A stretch of 64,000 nucleotides of DNA from Paraspadella gotoi (Eukaryota; Animalia; Chaetognatha). Numbering within the stretch: the stretch's first letter is position 1; every line of letters starts with the position of its first letter. Location: assembly GCA_051294375.1 (NCBI GenBank), contig CM119263.1, positions 7,736,635 through 7,800,634 on the forward strand, in the 5' to 3' direction. The notes under the pieces were generated by a model that saw only the letters and a list, made by a program, of their open reading frames with translations, did no database searches and was not told where the DNA came from. Below, in pieces: positions 13,204-54,619 of this stretch. Made by a program: the position numbers and the translations under genes.

Positions 13204-13491
13204 TGTAGTTGCCGTTGTGGCGAATCCTAAAATCTCGTCCCGTATAGCTTGGTGAAACTCGGCTTAACCCATTGGCTTGGACAGCCAAGTACTCGTTCAC
13301 CAACCGTGAGTTTCGGGTTCAATCCACTCACGGTCACGCTGGTTAAGTGCGATGGTGTTGACAAACACGCCAGCGACGTGGGGTGGTCACTGCAGGTCTA
13401 AAGCCCTGAGCGCCAGCGTCTTCCGGTTGCCATACTGTTTTCTAATTTTTGAGATTACGGACAACTTGAGAATTAAGAAGTGTTCCCAATA
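13204..13491 (+). mobile_element. Probable solo LTR (or SINE) with tRNA-derived head and twister-like motif
   Basis: Starts TGTAGT like the 41-kb TRIM LTR; B box GGGTTCAATCC within hairpin ACCGTGAGT/ACTCACGGT; twister-like motif 13336-13419; TTACGGA near the 3' end as in the 41-kb LTR. 3' boundary uncertain. Confidence 0.6.
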
Positions 13492-16256
13492 GCGCTCCAT
13501 AAGTACGGTGGCGGTGTCGCGTGGGAGAACGACGCAAAGGCGCTAAAAGAGACTCGATTTCGTGAGCGCCATCTTTGCCCGTCGTTTGTCCTGTCGAGCG
13601 AAAGAAAAAAATTAGTTTTTTTGTTTAAAAAATATCCTTTTCCTCCCAACCTAAGTTGATTTATTTATTATTTTATATTAAGTAAATTTAAGAAACGCTT
13701 TGCTCTTCATTTTCCCGGCCTCTGCCGTGGAGCATGATTCTGGAAGAAACAATTAATGAAATTGGTACAACTTATATAAACAATCAATATTTTAAATGAA
13801 ATATCAATCAAAATCAAAAGCATTTTTTCAAATCAATGACATAAGTTGTAAGTCTAATTCGGAAATGGCAAAACGAAGTTTGAATACATAATAAATTCAT
13901 CACTACAGTTTGAAAGATTGTACAAGTGACAACTCCACAGGATGTGGTTTTTTTTTTCGTAAANNNNNNNNNNAGGTACAACCAATATAAAATTATATTT
14001 TCAGTTTAAATTTATTTTATTTTAATATTATTCACATTTGTAAAATCTCATTGTCGAATTTTATAGTGATTGTTATACAAATTAATATTTCAAAAACTTG
14101 AGGAAATAATTTGTATATGACGCAAGACATAACTTATTTCAACGTAAAGATTTTAAGCCGACCACAAGATAATTAGATAGTTTCCGCACCGGTGCCGCAA
14201 CTGAGAAATTTTAGTTTTAGTAACTGATACTATTCGCTAAGTTTCACACACCCAGTCGGTTTCAAATAAAAAGTGATTGTAAAGTTCATTCAAATACGAC
14301 CATTCTTAACAAAACTAGTGGATTAACTGTATTTGGCACGAGGGCTGCGCTGCAGAAAATCGTCCCGATGCTCCTTTAATTACACACCTCGTCAATAATT
14401 AGAGGATACCTTGATAATTCGTTCCGAATGGAGCTTCAGCCTTCATGAAAACCGGTATTTTATTACACTTAATTACAGAGGTCTAGATGATTTTTACATC
14501 GAACTACAACATACATTAATTCTTTATTAATAATTAGAATTAAAAAGTATATTTTGAAATAATCTTATGTTCTTGGCCGAAGTCTTTTTAAAACGCTTAG
14601 TTTTACTTCGACCTAGTCTTAGTATCAGTTCTATATCTTTCCATCGTATTTAAGCTGAAGGTAATCGGCAATCAAACCGGTTCTGGGGAACGTATCCGGC
14701 AGGATAATCTTCATTTTGATTTGAAGTCTTAAAAGTACGGTTTCCTCACGTTTAGCTAACACATACCTCAATATTTAGCAATATAATAACAGCATAAATA
14801 TTCGGATTTTTAAATTATAGCATGAATTGAAAAAGCAAAATTGAATTAGATACTCAAGTCACCTTCATTGTTTAATCTATAATAGTACAGCGTATTCGTG
14901 AATCCATAAACTTCATCAATCAAACTACTTGCCAATTATCGGCAAATGGCAAAAAGACTTCTAACGTTTGAAAATTTGGTTCAACAATTAGCTCTCCACT
15001 GGGTGCCGATTTTATTGACTTGAAGATCGTTATGTTATTTTTGGAAGTAGACCCTCACACATACATTTGAAAAGAGTCTCGTTTTAGTCTCTTTGTTCTT
15101 GTCTCAGAGGGTCGGCGCTACTAGTAGGGGGCCTGTCAAAGCTCGAAAGAAACGAGTCGAACGTCAACTTTTACCAGTTCTGGTCCTCTGGCAGACTTTA
15201 AGTTCGAAAAAAGATCATTACTTTTTCATGTTGTGATTAATTCCGTGAGTTAAAAAATACTGTAAATTGCGATTTAATCAAATCAATGTAGTTTTTTCAT
15301 CTATAATTAAAATTACAACATAATGATAGATCAATAATTTAAATATGCGTTTTTATGGAGATGAAAAATAACGAAAATTGAAAGGCAAAAAATCTTATTT
15401 CGATTGAAGTCTATTTTAATCTTAAACTAGCTACGAATCATTAAATTAGTAAAGGCATTTTCGTGCTTGAAAAATAATTATTTCTTGTCCATTTTTACAC
15501 CCAACTAACAAGAACCGTTGAAAGAAACTAAAAAGGGGGAATGCACCCCATAGTTGATACTTGGTTCTCGACGAGAAGCACGAATCTGTCTGGAACCAAA
15601 CAAAGGATTCCCGGCCTCTCGCTTTCCTCCTTTCCAAGCTTCTCATTCAATATTTGCTTGAACTACTTTAAACTCGAAACTCTCCTTTCATCTTTGTCAT
15701 CGTTATGCGCTTGGTTGACGAGAATCGCAATTGGGTTTGCGTCTAAAACAAGCGAGAGCTGTGGGTCTGGAACCCCTCCTCGTCCTCTTCCTCGACCCTT
15801 TTCATCCCCGTTACGGGAGGCAGACGGAGAGAGAGAGTTACTTCTTCCAACTCTCTCTCTCTTCAACTCTCAAGTCACGAACCTTTATCGTGCCCTCCTC
15901 CTGATTGCGGGTGTTGGTAGGATCGAGATCTCAGCCGACAACCAGTTTTTCATCGCTTGAGAAAATCTCGGGAAAAAATATTCGTTCGCGACCAAAAATC
16001 ACGAGAAACTCCCGTTTTTCTTTTTGAAAAAGCTTTAATTTTTTACGGATTTTTGAAAACCTCTTAATGATAAACGCGGAAGCATCAAAATTAATACAAA
16101 CTTTCTTTCACTATTAATATCTCCGACTACGCTACAAAACGAGGAGATATCTTTTGTCATGACCATGTCAAACACACCAGACTAAAATTTCGGCTATGGT
16201 TAATTTGGTTATAATTTTCTTAAAAAACCAAGAAGGAAAACCACTAAACAAAAAAC

Positions 16257-20490: not shown

Positions 20491-20529
<39 letters not shown>

Positions 20530-22730: not shown

Positions 22731-23491
22731 TATTTTGTTAAGCAGTAATCTCTTGCGAAAAGTGCAAACGATTCTAATGATTGGGACGCAATTGTCTGGA
22801 GTAGTATAGATTCTAGAATTCTTATAATAAACGTGGTTGCTTTCGATCTACAATATGAAATTCGGTTATTAAATGCTGATTAGATTTCTCATCTCATTTT
22901 GAAAAATATTTTTTGAACACTTTCAGTTTGGTTTTATCACGCTCAAATTGTAAATTCGCTACGTTTATAAACATTGTATTTTGTTATAATGAATTTTCTT
23001 TAATTCAGTTAAGCTTTAAGTTACTTTCGATATGATTCGTATACTATAAATGAAAGTTCATATCTCATAGTAGTAGTAGTAAAGATCTGAAGCTATCGCC
23101 GAAAATTACGAAACAAGAAAAAAGGGTATTAGTTATTTTTATAATTATAATGATTGGATTTTAGTGGAGGCAAAAAAAAAACTACTAATAAAATTAAAGG
23201 AGAAAAACGATGTCGTTATCAGATCAGATCTTGATAATTCTTAAAATAACAAAGGTATAGTTTTAATATAATAAGGGATTATATTATAATCCATATTAAG
23301 GTTTATTAGTAGATTATTGTAATAAACTTTCGTAATTTATTTCAAAAACAGTTATACCACAGCAAGTCAGCATGCTGTAAAATGAAATGTATGTAACCTT
23401 TAAACACTTTGAAATTAGTAAAACCAATATAAAGATTATCCATTCATTTGATAAATAATCTATTTTGGCCCTGACTTTGCATAAGCATTAA

Positions 23492-23648
23492 AATTATTAC
23501 TTTCGTCGACCGGGGTTTTTTGAAAAACCACTTAAAAATAATTATTTAAAAAAATTACAAATTATTACCTTATTACCATAACCCTCCTAACTCTAACTAT
23601 CCTTAACCCTAAACCACCCCAAACCCTGGTCGGCGAAAGTAAAATTAT
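23492..23648. mobile_element. Short non-autonomous element with terminal inverted repeats and degenerate (CCCTAA)n core, copy 1
   Basis: Left ATTACTTTCGTCGACCGGGG vs right CCCTGGTCGGCGAAAGTAAAATT; internal TAACCCT/CCTAAC-like repeats. Confidence 0.65.
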
Positions 23649-25261: not shown

Positions 25262-26662
25262 CTTAGCCTCTGTTCAAAAAGCGCTTGTGATCATCAAGGA
25301 TTCGCTAGAGTTTTTAGAAGATGATATTATATGTTTTTTCTTATGTACATACAAAAGTAGTGCAAACATCTTGGAGGAAAGTTAAAATGGGGTACTACTT
25401 TAATTAAGAAATATTTTATATAAACAAAATGAAAAGCTTTGGAGCGAGTGGGTGACTTGTCGCTAAGGCTACTTCCCCCTCGGCTCGTTTAACAATATAG
25501 AAAATAAAATTAAATTACACAATACGCTTGTTTGCTTCTAAAACTCATGTTTTTTTCTGAAATCGTGGTATTATTTTATATTTATCATCTTTATGGAAAT
25601 ATAACCGTTACATCTTTGAAAAAAAAACTTTTCCAAGTAGTTCCTTCTGACTCCATTTGAGTTTCCGTGTTAGCGAAATATTCACTTCATGACCCAACAT
25701 GAAATAATTTAGGAAATTTTCATAATAATAATAATTATAATACCCGATTTTTTGCGATCCAACGTTTCAGTATATCTATCTACTAATATTTATTAGAAAT
25801 ATCTTTTAGCCTTATCCTTACGACTTGGCCGGGACCCATTAGCTTTATTGATTTTATTGCAATTAATCAGTGAATTCTGAATCGATATTCTATAAGAAAT
25901 CTTTTTAGCCAGAACTATAGTTTCGACAGTCTTCTCTCACTTATCGTTTTGCGTTGCAAAACCGTAAGTGATAAGACTCCGTGAAGCAATTTTTATTTGT
26001 CTTAATTTAAGTTTCCCGAAATGTTTAAAGAGGTAAGCAATAGACACCTGCCAACCGAACACAGTATCGGGATCCACAATCTTTTCACTATGGTCATCCA
26101 TTTACATGTTTTCGCTGATAAAGTAACGTAAACACCAGGTGGAGACATTTTGAGATATTATTTATTAATTACATTATTTATTTCGAGGCTGTCACCAAAA
26201 AAGCATTACAATTATTTCTTCCAAGTGATTTTAATCGAAAATTTCCTATATTCAATTGAAAATTGCATAATAACGCTTCAGCCCTCTATGGGATAACGAG
26301 TCACTGTACTAAAACATTATAATTGTGAGGAGATGTTAAATAAAGTAAAAATGTAGCTAGCTAGAAAATTTTTCTTAAAAATTTAAATTCGAAGTTTTTA
26401 CATATACATATGTAAATTCTTCACGTAAATACAAAACAAGTTCTTAAAAGTTGAAACATTATTGGGATGAATTTTTTTTAATTTCTAATTAAACGATAAA
26501 GCACGAAAAGAACTAGAAAAAACACAAGGAACGGAGAAAGGACAAGAGTTTGAATCTAATCTAATAACATTTTTTTTCATTGAAAGAAAGTAGTAGTGAT
26601 CCCAAATCTGGCAGAAAAAAAATAAAACGTTAATGGTTAAGGAATTTCATTAAAAATTTAAA

Positions 26663-26763
26663 AAAATTATTACCTTATTACCAAAACCCTCTTCACTCTA
26701 AACTACCCTTAAACCACCTTTAACCTTAACCCTTAACCCCGGTTGGCGAAAGTAAAATTAACC
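26663..26763. mobile_element. Second, 5'-truncated copy of the (CCCTAA)-core element
   Basis: AAATTATTACCTTATTACCA...TAACCCTTAACCCCGGTTGGCGAAAGTAAAATTA matches 23561-23648 in direct orientation. Confidence 0.65.
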
Positions 26764-27646: not shown

Positions 27647-29021
27647 TCAGTAGCGATAGTGGTCGGGCTTGAAGGGTCCGTCGATTGGAAGGTCCAGATA
27701 TGCGCTTTGATCATAGCTGAGCTTCATCAGCTTCACCCCAAGATGAGCGAGATGCGCTGCCGCTACCTCCTCGTCGAGCTTCTTGGGCAGCCTGTAAACG
27801 CCGACGGAGTAGTTCTCCTTTTTCGTCCACAGTTCAAGCTATAAAAATAATTGAGTAAAATTAACAGAAACGAATCGGCCTAATCTTTACATGATAATGA
27901 TAGATTACCTGAGCCAGTACTTGGTTCGTGAAGGAATTACTCATGACGAAACAAGAATGACCCGAGGCGCATCCGAGGTTAACTAGTCGACCCTCCGCCA
28001 GAACGATCACGTGGCGCCCGTTGCGCATGGTGTACCGATCCACTTGCGGTTTAATCGAATCTTTAATAGCGTTCTCATTCAACCAAGCGACGTCGATCTC
28101 GCAATCGAAGTGACCGATGTTGCAAACGATCGAGTCCTCGAGCATCGACTCCATATGACGCCCCTCGATAACGCCGCGGCAACCCGTGGTTGTGACAAAG
28201 ATCCTCGCTTCCTTGACGGCCTCCTCCATGGTCGTCACCTCGAAACCCTCCATCGCCGCCTGCAACGCGATGATGGGGTCGACCTCCGTGATCAATACTC
28301 GCGCGCCGAAGCCGCGAAGCGCTTGAGCGCACCCCTTGCCAACGTCGCCGTAGCCCGCGACGCAGGCCACCTTGCCGGCAATCATGACATCGGTGGCGCG
28401 CTTGAGGCCGTCGATGAAAGACTCCCGGCAGCCGTAAAGGTTGTCGAACTTGCTCTTCGTCACAGAATCGTTTACGTTGATAGAGGGGATCATGAGGTCG
28501 CCCGCATTATACATTCTATAGAGATTATGCACTCCGGTGGTGGTTTGTTCCGAGGCGCCTGCAATACCCGGCAGAAGGAGAGGATACTTGGAGTGAATGA
28601 ACTTGATCAAATCACCGCCGTCGTCGAGGATCATGTTGAGAGGCTGACCGTCGGGGAAGAAGATAGTTTGCTCTATGCACCAGAGGTACTCCTCGTCGGT
28701 CTCTCCCTTCCAGGCAAAGACGGGCACGCCGGCCTGAGCGAGGGCGGCCGCGGCGTGATCTTGCGTCGAGAAAATGTTGCTGCTGCACCACGTGACCTCG
28801 GCGCCGAGTTTGATGAGGGTCTCGACGAGGAGCGCCGTTTGCACAGTCATGTGAAGGCAACCGGCAATGCGAGCGCCCTTTAGTGGCTGCGAGGGCCCGT
28901 ACTTTTTTCTCATCATCATGAGTCCGGGCATCTCGTTTTCGGCCATGTCGAGAACTTTACGACCCCAGACAGCCAGTTTCAGATCCGCCACTTTGTACGG
29001 TAGTCGGTCTCGGGAATTCAT
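27647..29021 (-). CDS. AHCY: Adenosylhomocysteinase (SAH hydrolase); exons 29021-27909, 27838-27647
   Basis: [68 protein letters not shown]; second exon ends [10 protein letters not shown]. Confidence 0.96.
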
Positions 29022-29550
29022 TTTCGCAAACAGAATCTACAGAAAATAGAAGAATCGTTTCTGAAGGTTTCGGTTCTTGCGCTTGGCTTTCGTCTGCTTT
29101 CGAATTACGGGATCGTAATGTCTCATTACTAATGAGTGTCAAATAATAAATTAAAACTTAAAAATAATTAGATTAATTATAAAAAATTACAGAGGATGGG
29201 CCTTGGTTGTGCCACAACATCTCCAAAGGCGATATTTAATTTTAAACACTTCCAACACTTCCATGTAAAAATGAAGAGGCAAAAGATAAAGAAAAGAAGT
29301 TAGTTTTATTAGTGCGGAAAAGAATGGGATATTGGGATAATCAATAAACCGGATGAGATTAATTTTTAATTATAGTTTAAAGTAATAAATTTTTAAAATT
29401 ATAATTAATAATATTAGAAAAAAGCGAAAATGTTTATTTTCTTAACGAATTTGTTTTTATTTTCATAATTTTCATAACAATTATTTCTGTCTCTTCAATA
29501 CATATGTATGTATGTATCGATTTAAACTAATTTTAAATCGAATTTTAAAT

Positions 29551-29875
29551 AGTTGAACAGTAGTGATAATGGATTCGACTGTTGTTCGCTGTAATAGCGC
29601 ACTGGGTTAACGCTTCATTCCCGAACCCAAAGGTTACGCGTTCTAGCCCTGTCCTTGCTAAAAGAGTGACGGGCCGGTTAAACCAACGGTAGCAAGCCTA
29701 CCGCCGGATCCGAAGTTCTGGGAACACTCTGGGGACTATCTACACCCACAGAGAGGCGTGGCGTCCCTTTTTCCTCTCGGTCAGAAGAAGCAGAAACGTC
29801 AGGCAAGCATTTGCCCCTCTGCTATGGCGAGATAAAAACCTTGCTTTTCGTTTTACCTTAGCGTATTAATCTCCA
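29551..29875 (+). mobile_element. Probable solo LTR (or SINE) with tRNA-derived head and twister-like motif
   Basis: A box-like TAGCGCACTGG, B box-like GTTCTAGCC, twister-like motif ~29657-29726. Its 3' end CTTAGCGTATTAATCTCCA resembles the 41-kb LTR end CTTAGCGCCTTATCCACA. 5' boundary uncertain. Confidence 0.6.
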
Positions 29876-33969: not shown

Positions 33970-35782
33970 AATATTAGTACTTATAAAGTAAAATTTCTAT
34001 CTATTGACTATTGTGTGCAAATATTCCAACCACTATTTCAAATCGGAACTATAGTATATAGTTATAACTAGTATATAACTATACGTATGCCGGGCTGAAC
34101 CAGGTTTGTTTTGGTTCGCCTCTTTCTCATGTCCGTTAACTTTTACTTGGCTTTTGATCATGCAAGTTCGTTTAATAGACATCTCAGATGCGGCTGAGTC
34201 CCCTTAATTACGCAGAATTCTTTATGCTTTTCCCACGTCGTAGATTTTCTCTTCCGGGATAAAGCACTCGGGGCTCGCGGAGAATTAATATTGATAACGA
34301 ATGAAATTAATCTTATTAAATTTATTTATAATTATCAAAAATTAATGCGATTACTTTTAGCCGACACCACCTCTTGAAAAAAAAAGATATTTTCGATTCT
34401 CGATAACGGAGAGTTTTGCAGCACCTTAATTAGCTTTCCCCAAAAATTAAGACGTTATTGAGAAGTTTACGTATCCTCCCTCACAAAAAAAGACTAGAGA
34501 AAAAAAAAACAACTTTAATGCTTTGTAAGAGATATTAGAATACTACGCAAGTGCTAGGCCTCAATGAAATATATTCGTCGATTGTACAAAAAAATATGTT
34601 ATTCTATTCTCGACTTTGACCTAAAACGACAATTATTTATAATTACGGGTCACACGTGACGTGTTTTTTTCCCTTTGACTGAATTCGAATCTGCATCGTC
34701 GTCCTCGTCGTCGTCGTCGTCATCGTCGCCCAGTTTGGCTCGAAGGCGAAATCATCCTTCCGTCAATTCCTTCTTTTCCACAGGAAGCGGAACCGGTTCT
34801 TTGCGCCCGGAGGACCCGGCCGGACCTCGGATCACGGACCCCGCCGGTGACGTAGACCCCGCCTGGACGAAAAGAAGCTCCGCCTGATCGGTTAGAAAGT
34901 GTCGCCTGGATCGCCTTGCCGAATCGGAGACCCTACTTGGTTAGAGAAAGCTTCGCATGTTCGGATAGATTAGCTCGAATAGTTGGATAGAGATCTCTGC
35001 CTGGACAAACAGAAAGCCCATCCTGGCAGAAAAGTAGACCCAGCCCGACCGAATAACCGCTCCGCCTCGCCGGATGCGAGTTCGCCCGAATCCCGGTCAA
35101 GACGAAGGCGGCGCTGGACTCCCGGGGAGTTTTTTTTACAGCCGTTACGTTTTTACGTTCCGGCCGAAAACGTAATCGTCGTCGTCGGCGTCTTTCGCGC
35201 TTTGACGACGATTTCATCATCGTAATCGTCGTTAAACGTAATCGTTCGTTCCGACTGGAGAGTGGAGGTAAAGAGATGGCGCAACAAAGACGAAACCACA
35301 AACAAAAGAACTCATCACTGAATTTTACACATAAATTGACCAAATTGATCTTTTATGTGCGTAACGTTTAAAAGATATTCTGTGAACTCGCTTCTTGGGA
35401 GCGGTCTCCAACGATCATTGATGTTGCGGATCTATGGTCGAAAAAATAATAGAAGTTGGAAAGTTATTCTGTAAATAATAAATAAATTCATTGCTTTTAT
35501 CCATTTTGAGCACAAAAAAAAAACAATAAAAAAAAAAAAATCTATAGCACCTATTGAAAGTATTGTGGAGCATGCTTACATTCTCTCGGTTCCAAAAGTA
35601 TCGTAACCGAGAAATAGAATAAAAATTTTCGTTGCATAACGAATAACAAATATCGTTTTGTTTGTTGTCGTCGCTTTTGTTCGTAATCGTTGGAAAAACA
35701 TTCGGACGCAACGATTGTCATGAGAATCAGTCTTGGTACTGCCCCTTGGTCTGGGCAGAGAGAGAGAAAGAGGAGAACAGAG

Positions 35783-35832
<50 letters not shown>

Positions 35833-35914
35833 CGAAAAAGACCAAAAAAAAGGCGCGGATTAAGAAATACTAGAATTCCCACGATCTCCCTATGATTACA
35901 TGTCCAGCGAATCT

Positions 35915-35984
<70 letters not shown>

Positions 35985-37341
35985 TCCATCATTTTTCAGG
36001 TACCAAAGCCGGCGATCTGCTGGGAAACGAGTGGGACCGGCATGAGGGGGGGGGGAGAGATCAGAGGGTTCGGGGGAAACCGTCCGTCATTTCATCGTTT
36101 TATCAATTTTGTCTAAGACTCCCACGCAATCTAGTGGCCTCCAATGGCCATTGATTGTTTAATTGCCTTTAGTTTAAATAAGAGGGAAAAAAAAGAAAAA
36201 TAACTGAAAATATATTAATACTTGAAGCCCAATAAAGACTTGTTGTACGTACAATGTAATTTATCTGACACGATCGCGATTCCAAAACCAACTTTTTTTC
36301 CTTATTTTCCTTTTTTTCCTTATCTTTTTTTTCTTTATATCGAGACAAGAAAAACTGGTTAATGAATCTTCGGTTTCCTGGTCTCCACCGTTGCTGACGC
36401 CGCTCCTCTTTTCTTTGATCAAAATCATCTGAAACCAGCTCTCTCTCTTTTTCCTNNNNNNNNNNNNNNNNNNNNNNNNNCTTTGGGTCGCACTTGCCGA
36501 ATCGGAGACCCTACTTGGTTAGAGAAAGCTTCGCATGTTCGGATAGATTAGCTCGAATAGTTGGATAGAGATCTCTGCCTGGAACAAACAGAAAGCCCAT
36601 CCTGGCAGAAAAGTAGACCCAGCGCCGACCGAATAACCGCTCCGCCTCGCCGGATGCGAGTTCGCCCGAATCCCGGTCAAGACGAAGGCGGCGGCTGGAC
36701 TCCCGGGGAGTTTTTTTTACAGCCGTTACGTTTTTACGTTCCGGCCGAAAACGTAATCGTCGTCGTCGGCGTCTTTCGCGCTTTGACGACGATTTCATCA
36801 TCGTAATCGTCGTTAAAACGTAATCGTTCGTTCCGACTGGAGAGTGGAGGTAAAGAGATGTGCGCAACAAAGACGAAAACCACAAACAAAGAACTCATTC
36901 ACTGAATTTTATACATAAATTGACCAAATTGATCTTTTATTGTGCGTAACGTTTAAAAGATATTCTGTGAACTCGCTTCTTGGGAGCGGTCTCCAACGAT
37001 CATTGATGTTGCGGATCTATGGTCGAAAAAATAATAGAAGTTGGGAAAGTTATTCTGTAAATAATAAATAAATCATTTGCTTTTATCCATTTTGAGCACA
37101 AAAAAAAAACAATAAAAAAAAAAAATCTATAGCACCTATTGAAAGTATTGTGGAGCATGCTTACATTCTCTCGGTTCCAAAAGTATCGTAACCGAGAAAT
37201 AGAATAAAAATTTTCGTTGCATAACGAATAACAAATATCGTTTTGTTTGTTGTCGTCGCTTTTGTTCGTAATCGTTGAAAAACATTCGGACGCAACGATT
37301 GTCATTGAGAATCAGTCTTGGTACTGCCCCTTGGTCTGGGC

Positions 37342-37414
<73 letters not shown>

Positions 37415-37511
37415 CGAAAAAGACCAAAAAAAAGGCGCGGATTAAGAAATACTAGAATTCCCGACATCTCCCTATGATTACATGTCCAGCGAATCCTCTC
37501 TCTCTCTCTCT

Positions 37512-37572
<61 letters not shown>

Positions 37573-38051
37573 TCCATCATTTTTCAGGTACCAAAGCCGG
37601 CGATCTGCTGGGAACGAGTGGGACCGGCATGAGGGGGGGGGGAGAGATCAGGGAGGGTTCGGGGAAACCGTCCGTCATTTCATCGTTTTATCAATTTTGT
37701 CTAAGACTCCCACGCAATCTAGTGGCCTCAATGGCCATTGATTGTTTAATTGCCTTTAGTTTAAATAGAGGGAAAAAAAAGAAAAATAACTGAAAATATA
37801 TTAATACTTTGAAGCCCAATAAAGACTTGTTGTACGACAATGTAATTTATCTGACACCGATCGCGATTCCAAAAACCAACTTTTTTCCTTATTTTCCTTT
37901 TTTTCCTTATCTTTTTTTTCTTTATATCGAGACAGAAAAACTGGTTAATGAATCTTCGGTTTCCTGGTTCTCCACCGTTGCTAACGCCGCTCCTCTTTTC
38001 TTTGATCAAAATCATCTGAAACCAGCTCTCTCTCTTTTTCCTCTGATCAAG

Positions 38052-40519: not shown

Positions 40520-41148
40520 ATGTACATTAAGCGTAGTAAAATTTCCTCAGTTTAACTTTAATTAAAATTCTAAAAAGTGAGGAACGAACAACATTATACT
40601 TATAAACATTTATGTATAAAAAAAATTATAATAAATTTTACAATTTACGCAGATAGGCCATATTTATACTAGTACTAAACCAATAAATGTTAAAATTTCA
40701 AAACAGTTTTTTCTAAGATTTTTTTTGCAGATTTGGATTCATCATAAAAAGTTGATAAAAAGAAATATAACTCTTTTTGAAAAATTCCTTCATTAAGTGG
40801 GTCAAAAATTAGAAAAAGCTATATTTTTAAACTGAAAATTAACTTTTTATATATTAAATATAGTTTTTTTAATTTTTAACCCACTTAATGAAAGAATTTT
40901 TAAAAATGAATTATATTTTCTTTTATCAACTTTTGACGAGGAATTCAAATCTGCAATCAAAATTAAGAAAAGCCTATTTTGAAATTTTTCGATTTTATAA
41001 GGATAGTACTATATATAAATATAGCCTACTGCGAAAATAAAAAACATAAAATTATTTTTTTTTACAAATTAATGTTCACTGATTGTATGTTGTTCATAAT
41101 TGACTTTTAGAATTTTCGTATGTAACTTTCACTACGCCTTAATGTACA
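40520..41148. mobile_element. AT-rich foldback/MITE; the whole element is an imperfect palindrome
   Basis: ATGTACATTAAGCGTAGT...ACTACGCCTTAATGTACAT ends; inner arms TTCATTAAGTGGGT / ACCCACTTAATGAA and GCAGATTTG / CAAATCTGC; centre ~40845. Confidence 0.75.
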
Positions 41149-41372
41149 TGTATAAAAATACTGCATAAAGATAAAAAGGAAGGATAAAGAATGGAGGGAT
41201 AAAAGATTAGAAAGAAAGAAAAGAAGAAAGAAGAAAAAAGAAAGAAAGAAAGAAAGAAAGAATAAATAAAAAATAAATAAATAAATAAATAAATAAATAA
41301 ATTGTGGATAAGGCGCTAAGTGGGCTGAAGATGACTATCCGTAACTTCTATAACCCCTCTAGCAGACATGGA

Positions 41373-41451
41373 ACGGGTCCTGGGCTTGGAACCAGGCTTG
41401 AGGGTTGCCACGCCCCCAAAGGCGGCTTACGGCCGTCCTCACGCTTCCCAC
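41373..41451 (-). ncRNA. Twister-like (P5-type permuted) ribozyme candidate, 3' LTR
   Basis: GUGGG AA GCGU GA GGA CGGCCG UAA GCC GCC [P3] G CCUGG UUCC AA GC CCAGG A CCCGU: UAA, GCC, P4, AAGC loop and pseudoknot GGA/UCC. Confidence 0.6.
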
Positions 41452-41779
41452 AGGGTAGGTACCGGGTTGGGATTGAACCCGGTACCTAGTGGTCATGAGC
41501 TGATGGCTTTACTCAAATGAGCCACCGGGTCAGGACTGAAGGTGTCATGCTTATAGGCGGGGTGAACCTAGGCAATGCCGACTACATGCCCCCCAGATTG
41601 TAACCCACCCTGCACTGCTTCCAGTGGAGGGAGGGGAGCAATCTTCAGCACGTCCATGGGCCTGGAATCAGAAGGTTGGAATACGCTCGACAGGATGGGC
41701 TCACCAGTGTGGATAAGGCGCTAAGTGGGCTGAAGATGACTATCCGTAACTTCTATAACCCCCTCTAGGCAGACATGGA

Positions 41780-41856
41780 ACGGGTCCTGGGCTTGGAACC
41801 AGGCTTGAGGGTTGCCACGCCCCAAGGCGGCTTACGGCCGTCCTCACGCTTCCCAC
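41780..41856 (-). ncRNA. Twister-like ribozyme candidate, 5' LTR
   Basis: Same core as 41373-41451; predicted U/A site 41834/41833. Confidence 0.6.
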
Positions 41857-42000
41857 AGGGTAGGTACCGCGGTTGGGATTGAACCGCGTACCTAGTGGTC
41901 ATGAGCTGATGGCTTTACTCAATGAGCCACCGGGTCAGGACTGAAGGTGTCATGCTTATAGGCGGGGTGAACCTAGGCAATGCCGACTACAAAATAAATA

Positions 42001-42322: not shown

Positions 42323-42409
<87 letters not shown>

Positions 42410-44471: not shown

Positions 44472-44515
<44 letters not shown>

Positions 44516-44640
44516 CCACCTTTCGTCACTCACTCCCTTCATTTTCAAACGTCAGTCACAAATACATTTCCATTAATACCTTTCACTTTTCTCAAAACAA
44601 ATTCGTCGTTCAGATGCTACGCCGCTAAAAAAAAAAAAAG

Positions 44641-47600
44641 ATGAGGAAAGACTTTTTATCCATCGTTGCCTTCGTCGTCGTCTTCATCGTCTCTCCATCG
44701 AATACATTCTCCCTCTTCGAGAGTTCTTCCTCACACACATGGATCTTCGGCCCCTGGAACGAATGCTCTGTCTCTTGCGGCGGCGGCGTAAAAACTCGTA
44801 ACGTCTCTTGCACCGAAACCGGAAACTTTAAGATCGTCGCCAACCGGAACTGCCAGGGCTCGCCCAAGCCGCCCGTCGACGCCCCGTGCAACGAGCGACC
44901 CTGTCCGTCGGATTGGATCGCGAGGGAGTGGGGAGAGTGTCGAGCAAAATGCGGCGAGAAGGGACTGCGATCGAGGGAGGTCTTCTGCGGTCAATTGGTC
45001 GGAGGAGATTACTCGGTGAAGAGCGAAGAGGAGTGTTCCGCAGCAGACCGTCCGCCGAAGGAAGAAGATTGCCAAAGCCCCCGATGTCCAGAGTGGAAAG
45101 CGGGCACTTGGTCGAGATGCAACGTCGCTTGCGGCAGTGGATTCAGAACGAGAAAGGTCGAATGCCTTTCCGGAGGCGGGAATCGAACCTGCCCCAAAAA
45201 AGCGATGCCTATTCTTGTCGAACCCTGCGTCGAAATGCCATGCGAAGGCGTGGAGTGGGTCGTCTCTGACTGGAGTCCCTGTGACGGAACCTGCGAGGGG
45301 AAATCGGTGCAGACTCGAGTCGCTGTCTGCATGGGCAAGTCCGGCGCAGCCTTTAAAGACGAATATTGCGAAGAAGAGAAGAAGCCGGAGACCAAGCGAT
45401 CCTGCGTTTTGCCAGCAGACTCTTGCTCGCCCGTTTGGCACGAGTCCGAGTGGAGCCGATGCTCAGCCTTTTGCGGCAAAGGCGTCCAACTGCGCTCAGT
45501 CTTTTGCGTGATCCGAAGCGCGGAGTCTTTCGTCGTTGTTGACGAAGATAGATGTGCAAAGATCAAGAAGCCGGAGGAGAAGAGAGAATGCGTCGTCGAA
45601 GACTGCGGCGGAGTGTGGGTGTCTGCTCCGTGGAGTCCGTGCTCTGCCACTTGCAGCAAAGGAGCTAGAAAGAGAACGCTTTTTTGCATAAAGGGAAGCG
45701 TCAGTGTTGAGGAAAAGTTTTGCAACAGAGAGGACCGTCCCTCCCAGGCTGAGGAATGCAATGAACGACCATGCCAAGACAATAATGNNNNNNNNNNTCA
45801 AGAAGCCGGAGGAGAAGAGAGAATGCGTCGTCGAAGACTGCGGCGGAGTCTGGGTGTCTGCTCCGTGGAGTCCGTGCTCTGCCACTTGCAGCAAAGGAGC
45901 TAGAAAGAGAACGCTTTTTTGCATAAAGGGAAGCGTCAGTGTTGAGGAAAAGTTTTGCAACAGAGAGGACCGTCNNNNNNNNNNGATGAGAAAACTCCTT
46001 CAGGACCGAATGGCATTGGATGTCCCATAACATTTTCCTGCGAGGAAAGCTTATGGGGTTGTTGCCCCGACGGGGTTACGCCAGCTAATGGAGAAAATCA
46101 AGGCGGATGTGAGGAAATTCCCGATCTCTCATGTCGGTACAGTGTTTTTGGTTGCTGTTCCGATGGGGAAACCAAAGCCCTCGACTTTAACGGTCGAGGA
46201 TGTCCTGATCCAACTGAAGGATCAGGAGAAATTGATTACGAGGACGATTGTAGGTCAAGCATCTATGGATGCTGCCCTGATGGAATAACTTCTGCCTGGG
46301 GTTATGATTTTTTTGGCTGCAGCGACTTTAGTTCAGAAGTGTTCCCACCAAATCCGGAGGAAAACAGGTTTGATGAAAATTACATTGACCAGTCATGTTC
46401 ACATTCCTTATTCGGTTGTTGCCCAGACGAAAAAACTGCAGCCACAGGTCCGAATTTTGTTGGTTGTTTATTTACTGAGATAGATGAGGAAACTAATTTC
46501 CATCATGAAGAATTGATTACATGCGTGGAAACACAGTTTGGATGTTGTCCTGATGGAAGGACTGAAGCAAAGGGAAGTAATTACGAGGGATGTACAAGTG
46601 TAGAAAACTGTGAATATACTTTATATGGTTGTTGTTCTGACGGCATAACACCTGCCCTTGGCAAGAATTATTTTGGATGTGTTAATAACATCGGAGTTAA
46701 GAATACCTGCTTAGATTCTTTGTTTGGTTGTTGCCCCGATGGAGTTTTAGAAGCAGATGGTCCAAATTATGCCGGTTGCCCTATAATAACGAAACACACA
46801 ACAACAGTCCCAACTATAACAACAACAACAACCACTGATGATTTTATCACTAAAGTCTTTGAAAGTACTTCTGAGATTACTAGTTGCGCTGACAGTACAT
46901 ATGGGTGTTGCCCTGATGGCATTAACTTTGCCCAAGGATCTAAGTTTCAAAATTGTTCAGCTACTTCTGAAACCTGTTTTGAATCTCAATTTGGTTGTTG
47001 CCCAGATGGAGTAAGTCCTGCAAAAGGGTTTGAGCTAGAAGGATGCCCTTACAGCCTACAGTTCAGGGAAAATTATTGCTCACAACCACATGATACTGGA
47101 CCAGGAAGAAACTTTGAGGTCAAATGGTATTTCGACCTTTCCCTAGGCGGATGTAGAAGATTTTGGTACGGCGGAGTAGAAGGAAACTTAAATAAATTTG
47201 ACAGTGAAGAAGTTTGCAAACGTTCTTGCGTTGAACCAACTGGAATCGATATTTGCTATTTGCCAAAAGTTTCTGGACGCTGCGGAGCAAATTTGCTTAG
47301 GTATTACTACGATTCAAGCTCTTCTCAGTGTAAGCCATTTTCTTTTGGAGGCTGCCTTGGAAATCGCAATAATTTTGAAACTATTGAAGACTGCTCAAAA
47401 TTTTGTATGAAGTCACAATTTGATAAAATTTGCTCACAAAGATTAGACGTTGGCCCGTGCAAGGGAAAGTTTAAACGATGGTACTATGATGAAATTGAAA
47501 ATGAATGTTCTATGTTTGATTATGGCGGCTGTAAAGGCAATAAGAATAATTTTGTTAGCATTGAACTATGTCAGCAACAGTGCCTCATTGCAAACAGAAA

Positions 47601-50600
47601 TGACATTTGCAATTTGCCCTCGTTACATGGTCCTTGCAATTTGAAAAAGAAATTATGGTATTATGATACCAGAACAGCAGATTGCCAACAATTTGTCTAT
47701 GGAGGATGTGAAGGCAATCAAAATCGTTTTAAGTCAAAGGAAAGTTGTACAAAAGTTTGCGGTAAAACAAAGCCCTTAAGGCAACAAATTTGCCAGCTTG
47801 AGAAAGCTGCTGGAACTTGTTCATCTTCTTTTCAAAGGTGGTATTTTGATAGATCCGAATCTCTTTGTAAACCTTTTGTCTATAGTGGTTGTCAAGGTAA
47901 TCTTAATAGATTCAAAACAGAATCAGATTGCAGAAATAAATGTGGCGGTCCCACTCCAACAAATGCTTGTAGTTTGCTTCCAGAACGAGGGTCTTGTTCT
48001 AATTGGCAGCTGTATTATTATTACAACAGTACAAAGGATATGTGTATGCCTTTTTATTACGGGGGATGTGGAGGAAATCAAAACAGATTTTCTAGTTTAG
48101 AGGAATGCAAGAAACGATGTCCAGCGAAATCAGAAAATGTGTGTAAAATTCCAAGAGACCCTGGAAATTGCAATATGAAACTTAACCGATGGTATTTTGA
48201 TGATACTACAAACTCATGTGAAGAATTCATCTATACAGGATGTTCAGGAAATCAAAATAGATTCTCAACCCAGAGTGAATGCCAAGCGACATGTGCTTAT
48301 TTGCTAGAGAGACCAATGATTCAAATCAAGCCAACGCCAAGAGAATTGACAACAATAGCAACCATAACCACACAAATGCCAGAAGAATCAACTATGCATC
48401 CAATATTGACCCTAAATTCTGAGAAAAACATCAGCCAAAGTTCATTATGTAGCTTAGACCCCACAGGAATTAGATGCTCGGATTCAAATGAAAAACCAAA
48501 GCCCAGATGGTATTATAACTACAGAACTCAAACTTGCCGACAATTTTCTTTTCTTGGATGTGGAGCAAATTCCAACAATTTTATAACTAGAGAAGATTGT
48601 GAATTTGCCTGTTTAAATGTAATGTCCAAAGCTCAGCAAGTTATTCAGATCAGAGATAACGAGGTTCAAATCATTCCATTGATTGATACTATATCTCAGA
48701 CAGATGTTTGCAAACTCAGGCCGAGTTATGGAGAATGCAATGATAAAATTCGACGGTGGTATTATGAACCAATGGTCAAACAATGTTTGGAGTTCTTATT
48801 TTCTGGTTGTCAAGGAAACGGTAATAATTTTCTCAGTAAAATTGAATGTAAAGAAACGTGTATGGGGATAACGGATGATCCAAAGCCAGAGTTTGTAATC
48901 ACGACGGCCATTCCCGAGTTAGAGGATGTCTGCCGATTAAAAGAAGACACCGGGCCATGCACGCAGTACACGCAAAGGTATTACTACGACACACAGACCA
49001 AAGAATGTCTTGCATTCATTTTTGGAGGCTGCAGCGGAAACGGGAACAACTTTGTGTCGAGACAGGATTGCATGGACGCCTGCAAGAAAGCGGCGGATCC
49101 CTCAGAAAGCCAATGCGAGATACCTCAATCTCGAGGCCCCTGTCGCGCTTCGATCAAACAGTTTTATTACGACACGATGAGAAACTATTGTTTCGAGTTC
49201 ATCTACGGCGGCTGCGGCGGAAACAGCAACAGATTCGAAAATCTAGAAGATTGTTTGGCTAAATGCGCGCCATCGACTCTGCCGAAGAAAGGAGTCAACA
49301 AGGATTCGTCATTGCCCAAACCCTGTACTTACCACCCGGATCAAGGACCCTGTTACGGTAGACAAGAAAAATGGTACTTTGATTCAAACGCCATGCGCTG
49401 CAGAACTTTCGTGTATGGCGGTTGCCAGGGTAACAAAAACCGCTTTGGCAATCGGCAGGAATGCGAAGCGACCTGCAATATGCGTCAGACCAACTACCAA
49501 GTGTGCTCCCTACCGAAATTGACTGGCCCATGCAAAGGAGCTTACATCAAGTGGTATTGGGATGACGACGCGCGCATCTGTCGCAGGTTTTATTACGGGG
49601 GCTGCGAAGGCAATGAGAACAGATTTGAAACAGAAGACGATTGCCTGGTTAAGTGCGGTTCCAAAGAGTCGGAGCAATGCTTAAAGCAGCGTTGTGATAA
49701 AAATTGTTCCTACGGCTTGGAGAAAGATTCGCGCGGATGTCAAATGTGTTCTTGCCTTAATCCCTGCAAAGATCAAATATGCGCCGACAATGAGCGCTGT
49801 TTTGTTGAACCATGCAAAGCTGGGGAGGATTGTCGCTTTAAACCCCAATGTCGTGCAAATGAAAAACCGGGTTTCTGTCCCGCCCAACACTCTGAAAATC
49901 TTTCGTGCAGCATCTCTTGTAACCACGATTACTCTTGTCCAGCCGACACTAAGTGCTGCTTCGACGGATGCGGCAAAAGTTGCATGCAGCCAATCCGAGA
50001 TGCATCGCCAATCTCTCCACCCGAAGCAGATTGCCGCTTGTCTCTCTTCGGCTGCTGCCCCGACGGAATCAGCGCCGCTCAAGGTTACAACTTCAAGGAT
50101 TGCCCCCAGGAAAAAGCGACGATCGTCTCGGGAAGCGCCGAGGAGCTTGTTTTCATCAACGGTCGAGGCGGCAGAATTGATTGCGTCGCCCGAGGATTTC
50201 CGCGTCCGCAAGTTAACTGGTATTTTAACCGGTCGCCAATCACGGACGACGACGACGAATTCGAGCTTCGCGATAACGGGACGCTCGTCGTTCGGACGGC
50301 AAAGCCTTGGAATCGCGGGATCTACACTTGTCGGGCCTTCAACGGCGTCGGCCTTCCCGTGACCAACGACTTTCGTGTCGTCGTCGTCTCGCCGCCGGTC
50401 ATCCTCTCTCAGTCCCAACGCTTCGTCGCACGAGCCGGGGACGACGTCTCTCTCGAATGTCGACATTCGGGGGATCCCGAACCGGAATATTTCTGGATGA
50501 AGGTAAACAGCGAAACAGATCTCATGAGTTTCTTATTATAATAAGTCAGCTGAAAACTAGCATATTAGCATAACATTTTTAGGAAATATCTAGAATGTTT

Positions 50601-51519
50601 TTTTTTTCAAAACTTAAAAACGGATTGTAAATTTTAATTATTTTCATAATGGAGTTACAAGATATTTCGATTTTAGGCACTGTTACTCAATTTTTGAAAG
50701 GAAAATTATACATGTATTATCAGTGTGTGCTTGCGATGTCGTTAAGTAGATAAGAAAAATAATGATTGATGAATTAAAACTTTAATTTTCCACACAATTT
50801 TACAAGATTGAATTGCTTTTTTGATAGAAAAAATAAAAAAAACATTTTTTTTCCGACTCAAGGATCGAATTCCGCTGCCGCAAAACTCTGACGATCACGT
50901 GACATTCGTCAACCAATCGCTGCGCATCGCAAGAGTCCTCCCGCGGCACGCCGGCTTCTACGAGTGCGTCGTAAACAACGGTGTTGGCGACGCGATGGCG
51001 CTGCGTCACACCCTCCAAGTCGAGCGAAATCTGCAAGCGTCAATAGGGGATCACAAAGGCTCCTACCTCGAGGGCGACGACGTGACGCTCCTCTGCTCCG
51101 TTACTGGATCTACGGATCGACTGCAACTGACTTGGTTCCGAGACCGGGAGGCGCTGACGACCGATTCGGGCCGAGTTGTCCTCGCCGACGACGGCCGATC
51201 TCTCCGAGTCGCCAACGTGACGATGAAAGACGGTGGAACGTACGTCTGTCGAGTGGACGACGGACTGGGCGTGGCTCGCGCGGAGACGCTGGTCGTCGTC
51301 GAGGCAAGGGCGACGCCGCCGCCTCCACCGGCGCCACGAGCGCCCGAAGGTTGCCTCGACAATCGGCTCCTCGCGAATTGCAGACTCATCGTTGCCGCTA
51401 AAATGTGCAAGAACCGCTACTACAAAAAATTCTGCTGTCGATCCTGCTTTGATTCTGGACAAGTCGGCATGAAGGATTTGAGAAAGAGGTTCGGTCGAAA
51501 TGTTTATACTATTAAATAA
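44641..51519 (+). CDS. PAPLN: Papilin-like extracellular matrix protein: signal peptide, 6 TSP1, ~10 GCCPDG Cys-rich repeats, 13 Kunitz, antistasin-like, WAP, 3 Ig, PLAC; exons 44641-50502 (interrupted by two N gaps) and 50863-51519
   Basis: WxxxxWxxCSxxCG TSP1 repeats; CxxSxFGCCPDG repeats; Kunitz FxYGGCxGNxNRF; [14 protein letters not shown]; Ig WYFN...GIYTC; [36 protein letters not shown]; intron 50503-50862 GT-AG phase 0. Confidence 0.92.
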
Positions 51520-53044
51520 AAAAATAACGATTTATGGAATGTCATGGTTTTCTCTTAATATTGAGTCTTCAGTAAGAGATTCAGCGAATAGCATAACGTA
51601 TCTACTCTTTTACTTTTTGTATTTATCAATGATTATAAAAATTTAACTTTTGTAATCCCAATCTAATCGCGCTTTTATATTTGATGTGTTTTTTTAAAAG
51701 AAGTTTAGTAGATTCACGTATTCACCACAGATTTTTTATCATTCCTGTAAATTTTTCATATTTTATAATTTTATTCTCTTTCCAATAAATTCTACATTTA
51801 AAAACATTAAATTTTTTATTTCATAAACCTAACGTCACTTGACGATTAAAACGCCCGTCCTCCAGGTGCCTCCTAAAGACACTTTGTCTTATCGAAAAAC
51901 CGCAACAACTTCGATAAATCCCAAACACAAACAAAACCCTCTGATCTGAAAATTCAAAAATCCGCCCGCAGAATTTTTCACTCGCGCCAAAATTTTTTTT
52001 TTGTGTCGTTCAATTACGGGTTTCCCGCGGTTTTCCGAGGAGGCAATGACGACGACAATGACGACGACGACGAAACAGACAACGACATCGGCGTCCCGCG
52101 ATCCACCTGCCGAATTGGTCGTCACGTGACTTGGAATTTGTCCCTTCGACGACGACGACGACAGCGACGATGATTAAGGGAAGAGGATTTTCAAGATCGA
52201 ATGGAATTCGGATTTTTTTTTCAATTAGTTGGGGGGGAGGAAGGGGGAGAATTCCAAAATAGCGTTGGAATCGATTTTGATCAAATTCGTTCGTCACGAA
52301 TTTGAATATGCAATTTTGAGTGTCTCTAACACTGTCTAAAAGAAATAGGCTTTGTCAGCAAACTATCGTACAATAGACTTAAGTTTTTCTTTGAGTTAAG
52401 AACTCCAATGGCTAAAAAAAAAAAAAGAAAATCGAACTGGTTGATAATAATCAAAGACGGGAATTTCAATTTCAGCGCCATCTTTGCGATCTTCCGTTCG
52501 CCCGAGTTTGCGTGCACTCCGCCCTCAGCTTCCTCTCCACGCGCCGAGTCGCGGGGTTTTTTTTTTCGTCGCACGCGCCTGTCGTGTCATCGCGGAAAAA
52601 TCGAGCACGCTTCAACGTTTTTATGGGTGATCGACTGTCTGTTGGTTGGTTAGTCTCTTGGTATTTCCTTCCGTCTGTCTAACTGCCTCGCTGCCTTTTT
52701 GTCTGTCTGACTGTCTGTCCGTCTGTCTATATGTCTGCATGTCTTTTGTTTTGTCTGTTAGGCTTTCTGTCCTTCAGTCTCTGTGTCGTTTCCCTCGATC
52801 GTTTCTTCTTGTCGATCCGTGCGTTCAGACAAAGCGGTTTTTCAGCCTTTATGTGAGCCTGTCATTCTGAGAACGTCGGTCGATCTATGTCAATCTGTCA
52901 GTTTTTCAAGCTTCATAATCTATTTTTGCTTTTCTCCCTTTCCTGTCTCCCTCGACCCTTTCCTATCCATTTTTCCTTCGAAGAGTCGGCAAGCAGGTGG
53001 GCCACGCGACAGAGAGAGGAGAAAAAGAAGAGGCGAGGGAGGAA

Positions 53045-53103
<59 letters not shown>

Positions 53104-53991
53104 CAAAAAAAATCAATGAGCGCGTTTTTCCAACGATTTTCGCGTGCGGCCAGTAGGGTAAATGAAGGCGGAGAAGACAGAGAGAGGGAGCGAGGGAGGC
53201 TGAGGAAAAGAGTTAAGAAAATGGGATAGAGGGGGAGAGAGAAAATGTGGAGAGAAAGAGCAAACCTAAAAGGACGAGAAAGGAAATCGCGTGGCGTAAG
53301 GGCGGGGGTGGAGGTAAGGGGGGAGAGAAGGAGGAAAGGGGGGATGAAAGGAAATGAAAGCCACGGGGTCAAACTGAGGCAGCGGAAAGAAAAAATCATG
53401 TCGCGTGCCAAGTTAATTAATGGTAATGATTCTTTACGGAAAATACCGTTCGTTGAAGTATTGAAATAAATTTCCTCCCTTTTTTGACTGTTGGTTTTAT
53501 TCGAAACTCAATATCGTTACAAAAATAAAATTTGTATTTAACTAAATGTGTTTCAGTTGTCAACGAAGATATAAATCAAATTCTACATTCCCTCCACCCG
53601 CAATTGTCTACTTCACGTTCGAACCCCAAACCCCAGTTCCCCTCCACCCAATCCACTCTCTTCCCCTTAACCCTTATCATCCTTCTCTTCTCTAAGTTTG
53701 TTCAGCGACTCGACGCTTCATCGACTTTTTGACGCTCCTCGCGCGACATCGTCGATCGTAGCACCTGCTGGACCGTTCCTCCCACACCGCCCCCCCCAGT
53801 TCTAAGTCCCCCTTCCTCCCTTTATCTCTTTCGGTCGAAACTTCATCGATGATTCTCTCCTCTCTTTTTTTTCTTGCTCGTTCTCCACCCTTTCCTCCGT
53901 CGCATGCGGTCCATAACGACAACTTTCCGATTCCCAAATTGATCTGTACGTACATTGTTTTATCCGNNNNNNNNNNNNNNNNNNNNNNNNN

Positions 53992-54619
53992 ACCGTCATC
54001 AGCGGCCTATTTGGTGCCGGAGGCCATCATATTCGTCCTCCCAACCAAAGGTCGGGTTCTGAGCCCGATGGATGCCTGGCAGTTAAGAGGGACGGGCGTT
54101 AACCCGCCTGTACCATGATCCGAAGCGCAGGGACTGCTGATATTGAACGGTTTCTGTCACAACATATAACAATAATTACTGTCTCTTATTGGTGAGCCTA
54201 AACTTCCAAACACAATAGCAACAACAACACTTTCAGACGACATGCCTCAACCTGGCGAGCTACTTTTCCACCCACAACACATCAGGCGACCCATGCCTCA
54301 ACTTTGGTGAAGAACTTTCCACCAAATAACAATTCACTGAAGAGACGCAACAGACTTCTCCCTCGGGAGGGGGGGATGTTATGGTGGACTAAAATCTACC
54401 AAACCATTCATCAGCGGCCATTGGTGCCGGAGGCAAGTCATTTCGCCTCCCAACCAAGAGGTCTGGGTTCTAAGCCCCGGTTGGTCCGCCTGGCAGTTAA
54501 GAGGGACGGGGCGTATTAACCCGCCTGTAACATGTGTTACAGCCTGATCCGAAGCTCAAGGGACTTCTTATATTGAACGGTTCTGTCATTAAACATATAA
54601 CAATAATTACTGTCTTTTA
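53992..54619 (+). mobile_element. Second TRIM family with tRNA-like head and twister-like motif in the LTRs (5' LTR truncated by N gap)
   Basis: Direct repeats 53992-~54188 and 54377-~54619; PBS TGGTGAGCC at 54190; PPT GGGAGGGGGGGA directly before TGTTA at 54377; B box-like GGGTTCTAAGCCC. Confidence 0.8.
54493..54567 (+). ncRNA. Twister-like ribozyme candidate in TRIM-2 3' LTR (damaged copy at 54079-54137)
   Basis: GCAGU UAA GAGG GA CGGG GCGUAU UAA CCC GCC UGUAACA-UG-UGUUACA G CCUGA UCCG AA GC UCA AGG; pseudoknot CGGG/UCCG; P5 GCAGU/ACUGC intact in the other copy. Confidence 0.55.

What the first reader, a model, noticed from the sequence alone, without database searches (positions are those of the whole stretch)
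13336..54567. Same ribozyme-like fold recurs in four unrelated-looking elements with compensatory base changes
Seen, comparing 13336-13419(+), 29657-29726(+), 41373-41451(-) and 54493-54567(+). The pseudoknot pair after GA versus the P4 loop is UGG/CUA, CGG/CCG, GGA/UCC, CGG/CCG. P4 is CAGG/CCUG, CCGGA/UCUGG, CCUGG/CCAGG, UGA/UCA. P3 stems differ entirely in sequence yet pair (e.g. GGUAG/CUACC, UGUAACA/UGUUACA). GA, AA after the predicted site and U-nnn-AAG are invariant; GCC and loop AAGC hold in three copies, with AAC/AAGU at 29.7 kb. Three families show an apparent 1-nt bulge in P2 and all have little or no P1. Inference: selection on RNA structure in a minimal-P1 twister variant that standard models may miss.
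Basis: partly seen in the sequence, partly recalled or inferred. Interest (0 to 1): 0.85.

Follow-up and report, generated by a model that had tools for sequence, protein, structure and literature searches.

The report
Paired twister ribozymes in animal mini-retrotransposons
Four different families of tiny non-coding jumping elements in this animal genome carry, right behind a tRNA-like promoter sequence in their terminal repeats, the fold of a twister self-cutting RNA whose first stem is reduced to a six-letter palindrome, so the two repeats of one transcript would likely pair up to cut out a unit-length RNA that is predicted to circularise.

Summary
All four loci have P5-permuted twister topology: 68 of 72 core pairs hold within families against 148 of 216 across families. 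None of 17 motif-matched metagenome controls forms both the pseudoknot and P4. Rfam misses them; only one copy scores, 17.4 bits against a 37.6 cut-off.

The carriers are Helenus-like miniature LTR elements with tRNA-like A/B boxes; C is complete, with PBS, PPT and a 4-bp TSD.

'Little or no P1' needs revising. The linker is six self-complementary bases plus one base in B and C. I predicted the same for D, whose window copy fails, and most D copies in four sequencing runs have it. A fits only out of register. Thirty-four canonical P5 twisters have 15-28-nt linkers. A loop-less palindrome can pair fully only between two copies.

Best reading: twister-bearing LTR retrozymes in an animal, likely cutting as dimers. 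Cleavage, transcription and circles are untested, and P1 is reported dispensable in other twisters. Nine literature searches found no such element.

The parts
12635..12820 (-). Element E: decayed solo LTR, likely related to A; TG...TA ends, exact 4-bp TSD; keeps the 3' half of the twister (12715-12671), lacks P2', GA, the T1 strand and the B box
   Evidence: (E=0.03)
12966..13018 (+). 5' fragment of an LTR like E's (83% over 53 nt)
13216..13434 (+). Element A: solo LTR, TG...TA ends, TSD matching 3 of 4; no PBS or PPT beside it
   Evidence: ends inferred by analogy with E
13273..13335 (+). A: tRNA-like head (A-box-like at 13273, B box 13316-13325)
   Evidence: box consensus from PMC10886601 section 3.5
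13336..13419 (+). A: P5-type twister fold; predicted cut 13362/13363; 4-nt P2; palindrome 13357-13362 one base out of register
29590..29744 (+). Element B: probable solo LTR (TG...CA, imperfect terminal inverted repeat); no TSD found; A box 29595, B box 29639-29649
29657..29726 (+). B: twister fold; palindromic linker 29673-29678; predicted cut 29679/29680; one mismatch in the 2-bp pseudoknot
41708..41991 (-). Element C 5' LTR (284 bp): head 41929-41875, twister 41855-41781, linker 41840-41835, predicted cut 41834/41833
41587..41707 (-). C internal region (121 bp): PBS-like 41706-41698, PPT 41595-41587
41303..41586 (-). C 3' LTR, 97% identical to the 5' LTR; twister 41451-41373; predicted cut 41429/41428, 405 nt from the first; 4-bp TSD in low-complexity flanks
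53996..54188 (+). Element D 5' LTR (5' part lost in N gap 53967-53991); twister copy with deletions at 54072-54140
54189..54376 (+). D internal region: PBS-like 54190-54198 (same 9-mer as C), PPT 54365-54376; one T4 run
54377..54619 (+). D 3' LTR (3' end approximate): head about 54425-54487, twister 54491-54568, predicted cut 54517/54518

Best explanation
These are miniature non-coding LTR retrotransposons whose LTRs carry a tRNA-like head followed at once by a P5-permuted twister fold, and they likely work as retrozymes: RNA polymerase III would read through both LTRs, the two ribozymes would pair through their palindromic P1 linkers into a strand-swapped dimer and cut, and the unit-length RNA would be ligated into a circle for reverse transcription by a helper element. 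Shown: the LTR/PBS/PPT/TSD anatomy (complete in C, partly in D; A, B and E single LTRs), the twister topology with covariation, both catalytic positions intact in all four, and the loop-less six-base palindrome in B, C and most D copies. Inferred: pol III transcription; cleavage 5' of the AA; that each active site joins the 5' half of one LTR copy (P2', GA, T1 strand) to the 3' half of the other, so the 405-nt monomer of C is released with both ends held in one core; ligation by a host tRNA ligase; priming at the PBS by a Gypsy-type enzyme.
For: Covariation and motif-matched controls. Rfam Twister-P5 aligns C with a 3-bp P1, a 0-nt loop where the model has 14 nt, and a 1-nt P2 gap. The palindrome idea was noted before D was tested: the two equivalent alignments of the change cover about 99% of summed depth in X5, X6 and X9 and 82% in X1, giving GGCGCU+U, in register with GCCGGU+U (B) and CGGCCG+U (C). 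A C-family variant stays self-complementary (loose ends). The innermost pair differs between families and the B and D hexamers need G.U pairs, so pairing is at RNA level and not possible in cis. Chance of a 6-mer being self-complementary is about 0.05 (17 of 314 in these regions), 0.125 at a linker-like base make-up. Canonical controls: 0 of 34 distinct P5 twisters have a linker under 15 nt. Among twister-compatible folds of the C transcript the swapped dimer is 10.9 kcal/mol below two monomers. Precedent: hammerheads with a palindromic short stem III cleave as dimers (PMC6765202 passage; PMC7229834); plant LTR retrozymes make circles (PMC7761336). P2 imperfections are tolerated in natural twisters (PMC11662667 section 32).
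Against: No cleavage, transcript or circle was observed. P1 is reported dispensable in twisters (PMC5408937; PMC11662667), so monomers may cut unaided and a 6-nt tether is probably long enough (my inference). A's hexamer in register (UGUUGA) is not palindromic; A and B could not be checked against other copies. Unconstrained pseudoknot-free folding of the C transcript is 30 kcal/mol below the dimer fold, with linker-linker pairing under 1%. B and D have A-U where the review calls G-C essentially invariant at the top of P4, and the B copy has a pseudoknot mismatch. D has a T4 run in its internal region. Only four families, probably related by descent.
Confidence: 0.5

Rival explanations
1. The twisters are active as monomers without P1. 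The elements are still retrozyme-like, but the palindrome serves something else, such as dimerising the RNA for packaging in a helper particle, or aligning ends for ligation.
For: P1-less twisters cleave at near wild-type rate (PMC5408937 passage); P1 imperfections did not lower cleavage in natural twisters (PMC11662667 section 32). Six-base palindromes are dimer-initiation signals in retroviruses (recalled, not from a call). A is out of register.
Against: The palindrome sits flush between the T1 strand and N-1, exactly where P1 lies, in three families; a packaging signal need not.
Confidence: 0.28
2. The ribozyme mainly forms the 3' end of the pol III transcript in place of a T-run terminator; the RNA stays linear and transposes like an ordinary TRIM.
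For: C has no T4 run on the transcribed strand in 689 nt (about one in five by chance on my rough estimate). Many published Helenus LTRs have a T-run right after the head, where these have the ribozyme (read by eye).
Against: Both LTRs carry the same ribozyme, so cutting both removes the terminal repeat needed for strand transfer; only selective cutting of the second copy would leave it.
Confidence: 0.13
3. The fold is an inherited twister relic, conserved for another structural reason and no longer catalytic.
For: Rfam scores far below cut-off; competing folds; P2 bulge; A-U at the top of P4 in B and D.
Against: General base G, the cleavage-site AA and the L4 U and AA are kept in all four; both pseudoknots pair; most D copies keep P4 and P5 intact.
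Confidence: 0.09

Closest known systems
Twister ribozyme, type P5 (Rfam RF02684)
   Same: Order P5-P2'-GA-T1-P1-N^AA-P2-GC-P3-P4/L4; both pseudoknots; catalytic G and A; best Rfam hit on C. P3 together with open P5 also occurs in canonical ones.
   Different: P1 is a 6-nt loop-less palindrome, not a 15-28-nt hairpin; P2 has three pairs and a bulge in B, C, D; A-U tops P4 in B and D; scores below the cut-off.
Helenus / TRIMp3 (PMC10886601)
   Same: Short non-coding LTR elements with tRNA-like A/B boxes in the LTR, PBS, PPT, 4-bp TSD in animals, solo LTRs, several families per genome.
   Different: The paper reports no ribozyme in Helenus ('twister' 0 times). No twister seen by eye in supplement parts 1 and 5-9 of 11. 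It allows several origins of Helenus, so shared descent is not shown.
Plant LTR retrozymes (as described in PMC7761336, PMC6765202)
   Same: Ribozyme in each LTR, PBS, PPT, 4-bp TSD, non-coding centre; unit RNA between two cut sites.
   Different: Plant elements use type III hammerheads and are larger; the review says retrozymes seem to lack promoters and that metazoan ones lack LTR, PBS and PPT. Circles were shown there, not here.
Dimeric minimal hammerheads of Penelope-like elements and amphibian retrozymes (PMC6765202, PMC7229834)
   Same: A palindromic, nearly loop-less stem next to the active site in tandem copies.
   Different: Different ribozyme class and non-LTR carriers; dimer cleavage was measured there.
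Twister T-variants of Schistosoma Perere-3 (PMC8501958)
   Same: Twister with weak P1 in an animal retrotransposon.
   Different: P1-type ribozyme at the 5' end of an autonomous non-LTR element, single copy, P1 completed by flanking sequence.

Membership tests
Twister ribozyme | Stems P2 and P4 and two pseudoknots | tested here: met
   T1 12/12, T2 7/8, P4 15/16, P2 11/12 (bulged in B, C, D)
Twister ribozyme | Conserved active-site bases (GA, N^AA, L4 U..AA, GC/GC) | tested here: met
   GA, AA, U, AA in 4 of 4; GC/GC in 3 of 4
Twister ribozyme | G-C pair at the top of P4 | tested here: inconclusive
   G-C in A and C, A-U in B and D; called essentially invariant in PMC5408937
Twister ribozyme | P1 stem formed in cis | tested here: not met
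   linkers alone fold to no hairpin; 0-nt loop in the Rfam alignment; P1 reported dispensable
Twister ribozyme | Rfam gathering score | tested here: not met
   17.4 of 37.6 bits on C; no twister hit on A, B, D at E<=10
Twister ribozyme | Site-specific self-cleavage | not testable with these tools
   needs an in vitro assay
Helenus (TRIMp3) | Two LTRs, PBS, PPT, short, non-coding | tested here: met
   C 689 bp; D incomplete at its 5' end; A, B, E are single LTRs
Helenus (TRIMp3) | tRNA-like A and B boxes in the LTR | tested here: met
   A+B pattern in B and C; B box plus by-eye A box in A and D; ARAGORN finds no tRNA
Helenus (TRIMp3) | 4-bp TSD in animals | tested here: inconclusive
   exact in E and C (C in low-complexity DNA), 3 of 4 in A, none in B, D untestable
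Helenus (TRIMp3) | Transcription by RNA polymerase III | not testable with these tools
   not shown for Helenus either (PMC10886601 section 4.1)
LTR retrozyme | Self-cleaving motif in both LTRs of a PBS/PPT element | tested here: met
   C both LTRs; D 5' copy degraded
LTR retrozyme | Ribozyme is a type III hammerhead | tested here: not met
   twister fold; no hammerhead core in the elements
LTR retrozyme | Unit-length circular RNA accumulates | not testable with these tools
   only assembled contigs were available

The most novel reading that the evidence does not exclude
An animal lineage of pol III-driven LTR retrozymes uses a twister ribozyme that works as an obligate strand-swapped dimer: the two LTRs of one transcript complete each other's active sites through a palindromic P1, release the unit RNA with its ends pre-aligned for ligation, and leave circles and solo-LTR transcripts uncut. 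It would be the first natural dimeric twister and, with the hammerhead seen in two wasp Helenus LTRs, would show that tRNA-headed TRIMs captured ribozymes more than once.
Probability: 0.35. Interest if true: 0.9.

Novelty: new variant of a known kind. Interest (0 to 1): 0.76.

Why it matters
It would give twister ribozymes a second defined job in eukaryotes, extend LTR retrozymes from plants to animals with another ribozyme class and an internal promoter, and show convergence on dimer cleavage between hammerhead and twister. Five such elements in 64 kb are invisible to Rfam at standard thresholds, so twister counts in animal genomes are probably low. The constructs are short and the key predictions need only transcription and gel assays.

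Tried and rejected
No whole genome is held, so no genome-wide alignment or R-scape run. Rfam on the whole window gave no ribozyme among 33 matches, mostly (GA)n artefacts. The variant motif found 0 stretches in viral contigs and 17 in metagenomes, all rejected as chance. No RNA holder listed; X9 is only guessed to be RNA, and its 'goes back 401' joint is explained by the LTR repeat, so it is no evidence of circles. MAFFT misaligned the AA-P2 block of C by one column, so pairs were counted from coordinates and the model was sequence-only. Folding z-scores were not significant. The site at 58780 has weak pairing and was dropped. Host not identified: its adenosylhomocysteinase is at most 82% identical to any hit. 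In the control set 52 of 86 distinct parses were dropped for imperfect P2, and the search pattern was restricted to one common T1/L4 type. Earlier-findings look-ups were empty. SINE was considered and rejected for C and D (LTR pairs, PBS, PPT); it is not excluded for B.

Full report
Check. I call the four loci A (13.3 kb), B (29.7 kb), C (41.4 kb) and D (54.5 kb). Each reads, 5' to 3', as stem P5, AA, P2', GA, a triplet, a short linker, N, AA, P2, GC-C, hairpin P3, G, hairpin P4 with loop U-nnn-AA-nn, and P5'. This is the P5 permutation of the twister ribozyme as described in PMC5408937 (passages) and tabulated in PMC8501958 (section 17). Within families 68 of 72 core pairs hold; with strands exchanged between families 148 of 216. 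240 of 7,962,624 permutations reach the observed total, and T1 and P4, whose registers are fixed by invariant bases, give 2 of 24 and 1 of 24. Registers were set by eye, so these figures lean in favour. A descriptor finds 5 copies and 1 weak site, against 0.58 per shuffle. Of 17 metagenome stretches with the same sequence motif none forms both T1 and P4, so the motif does not imply the pairing. Folding energies are unremarkable.

Standard models. Rfam gives no ribozyme on the window nor on A, B or D alone. On C its best hit is Twister-P5 at 17.4 bits, E 0.14, cut-off 37.6; the alignment shows a 3-bp P1 with no loop, a one-base gap in P2 and an inserted P3.

Carriers. C is a complete 689-bp element: 284-bp LTRs at 97% identity, TG...CA ends, a 121-bp centre opening with a PBS-like TGGTGAGCC and closing with a purine tract, and a 4-bp TSD. 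D has two LTRs, the same PBS 9-mer and a purine tract; its 5' end lies in an N gap. A and the newly found E are solo LTRs with TG...TA ends (TSD 3 of 4 and 4 of 4). B looks like a single LTR without a TSD. In A-D a tRNA-like head ends 10-15 bases before the ribozyme (the A boxes of A and D are by eye); ARAGORN calls no tRNA. C and D are multi-copy: 1100, 3099, 562 and 12 contigs of four runs lie on C, many running off into unlike flanks at the LTR ends, and 221, 455, 113 and 227 lie on D. This fits Helenus as defined in PMC10886601 (main text parts 1-4 of 6 read; 'twister' occurs 0 times). In its supplement (parts 1 and 5-9 of 11 read by eye, whole file searched for five motifs) I saw no twister, but two wasp LTRs carry an apparent hammerhead behind the head.

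P1. The linker between the T1 triplet and N-1 is six bases in A, B and C. It is self-complementary in B (GCCGGU) and C (CGGCCG), with self-duplex energies of -9.1 and -11.9 kcal/mol and no hairpin. The window's D copy has seven bases and fails. I noted the palindrome idea and then laid four runs on D: about 99% of summed depth in X5, X6 and X9 and 82% in X1 read six bases, GGCGCU (depths are contig sums, not copy counts). Other D copies also keep a full P4 and P5. A C variant remains self-complementary. The background rate is about 0.05 per hexamer, or 0.125 at a linker-like base make-up. The innermost pair changes between families and cannot form in cis. In 34 distinct canonical P5 twisters (of 86 parses from 99 loci; 52 dropped for imperfect P2) linkers are 15-28 nt. 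Against: A's in-register hexamer is not palindromic, though one shifted by a base is, and A and B could not be compared with other copies.

Mechanism. If two linkers pair, each active site is built from the 5' half of one LTR copy and the 3' half of the other. In a read-through transcript of C this fold is nested and lies 10.9 kcal/mol below two separate monomers, but 30 kcal/mol above the unconstrained pseudoknot-free minimum, where the linkers pair under 1% of the time; pseudoknots are not scored, so this does not decide the matter. Double cutting would release 405 nt with 5'-OH and cyclic-phosphate ends and no terminal repeat, which suits ligation and reverse transcription on a circle, as proposed for retrozymes (PMC7761336 and PMC7229834, passages). 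Palindromic minimal hammerheads cleave as dimers (PMC6765202, passage; the primary papers were not read). The main objection is that P1 is dispensable in other twisters (PMC5408937; PMC11662667 sections 32-33), which also report that P2 imperfections are tolerated and pseudoknot mismatches are not; the latter makes the window's B copy doubtful. Nothing here shows transcription, cleavage or circles.

Novelty. Nine full-text searches (open-licence papers and bioRxiv only, judged mostly from listings) returned no twister in LTR elements and no natural dimeric twister. The 2020 review states that metazoan retrozymes lack LTRs, PBS and PPT. Each part is known; the combination and the loop-less palindromic P1 appear not to be. 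Verdict: real, a new variant of known kinds, interest 0.76; full dimer-and-circle mechanism about 0.5, obligate dimer about 0.35.

Noticed in passing
PMC10886601 supplement, Helenus-2_SyJa-LTR and Helenus-2_SyUm-LTR: Both wasp LTRs show, after the tRNA-like head, what reads by eye as a type III hammerhead (CUGAUGA and GAAAC core, stems I-III, complementary loops I and II). The paper does not mention it. Not run through any model.
   Followed up: partly
   Followed up: yes
window 34907-36455 and 36484-38042: 1.57-kb tandem duplication at 97% identity across an N gap; may be an assembly artefact.
   Followed up: no
window 40564-41116: 553-bp imperfect palindrome (77% to its own reverse complement), MITE-like.
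   Followed up: no
window 27861-29036 (-): Long uninterrupted adenosylhomocysteinase reading frame, at most 82% identical to any database protein.
   Followed up: partly
window about 44629-51519 (+): Papilin-like gene (thrombospondin-, Kunitz- and Ig-like repeats recognised by eye) with very few introns; assembly gaps and a 177-bp duplication at 45563-45974.
   Followed up: no
window 23412-23647, 26652-26760, 54662-54739, 63940-63991: Other short dispersed repeats, 78-81% alike.
   Followed up: no
L018-L068 (viral contigs): Many canonical P5-type twisters, some also with a P3 stem (for example L018, L029).
   Followed up: partly
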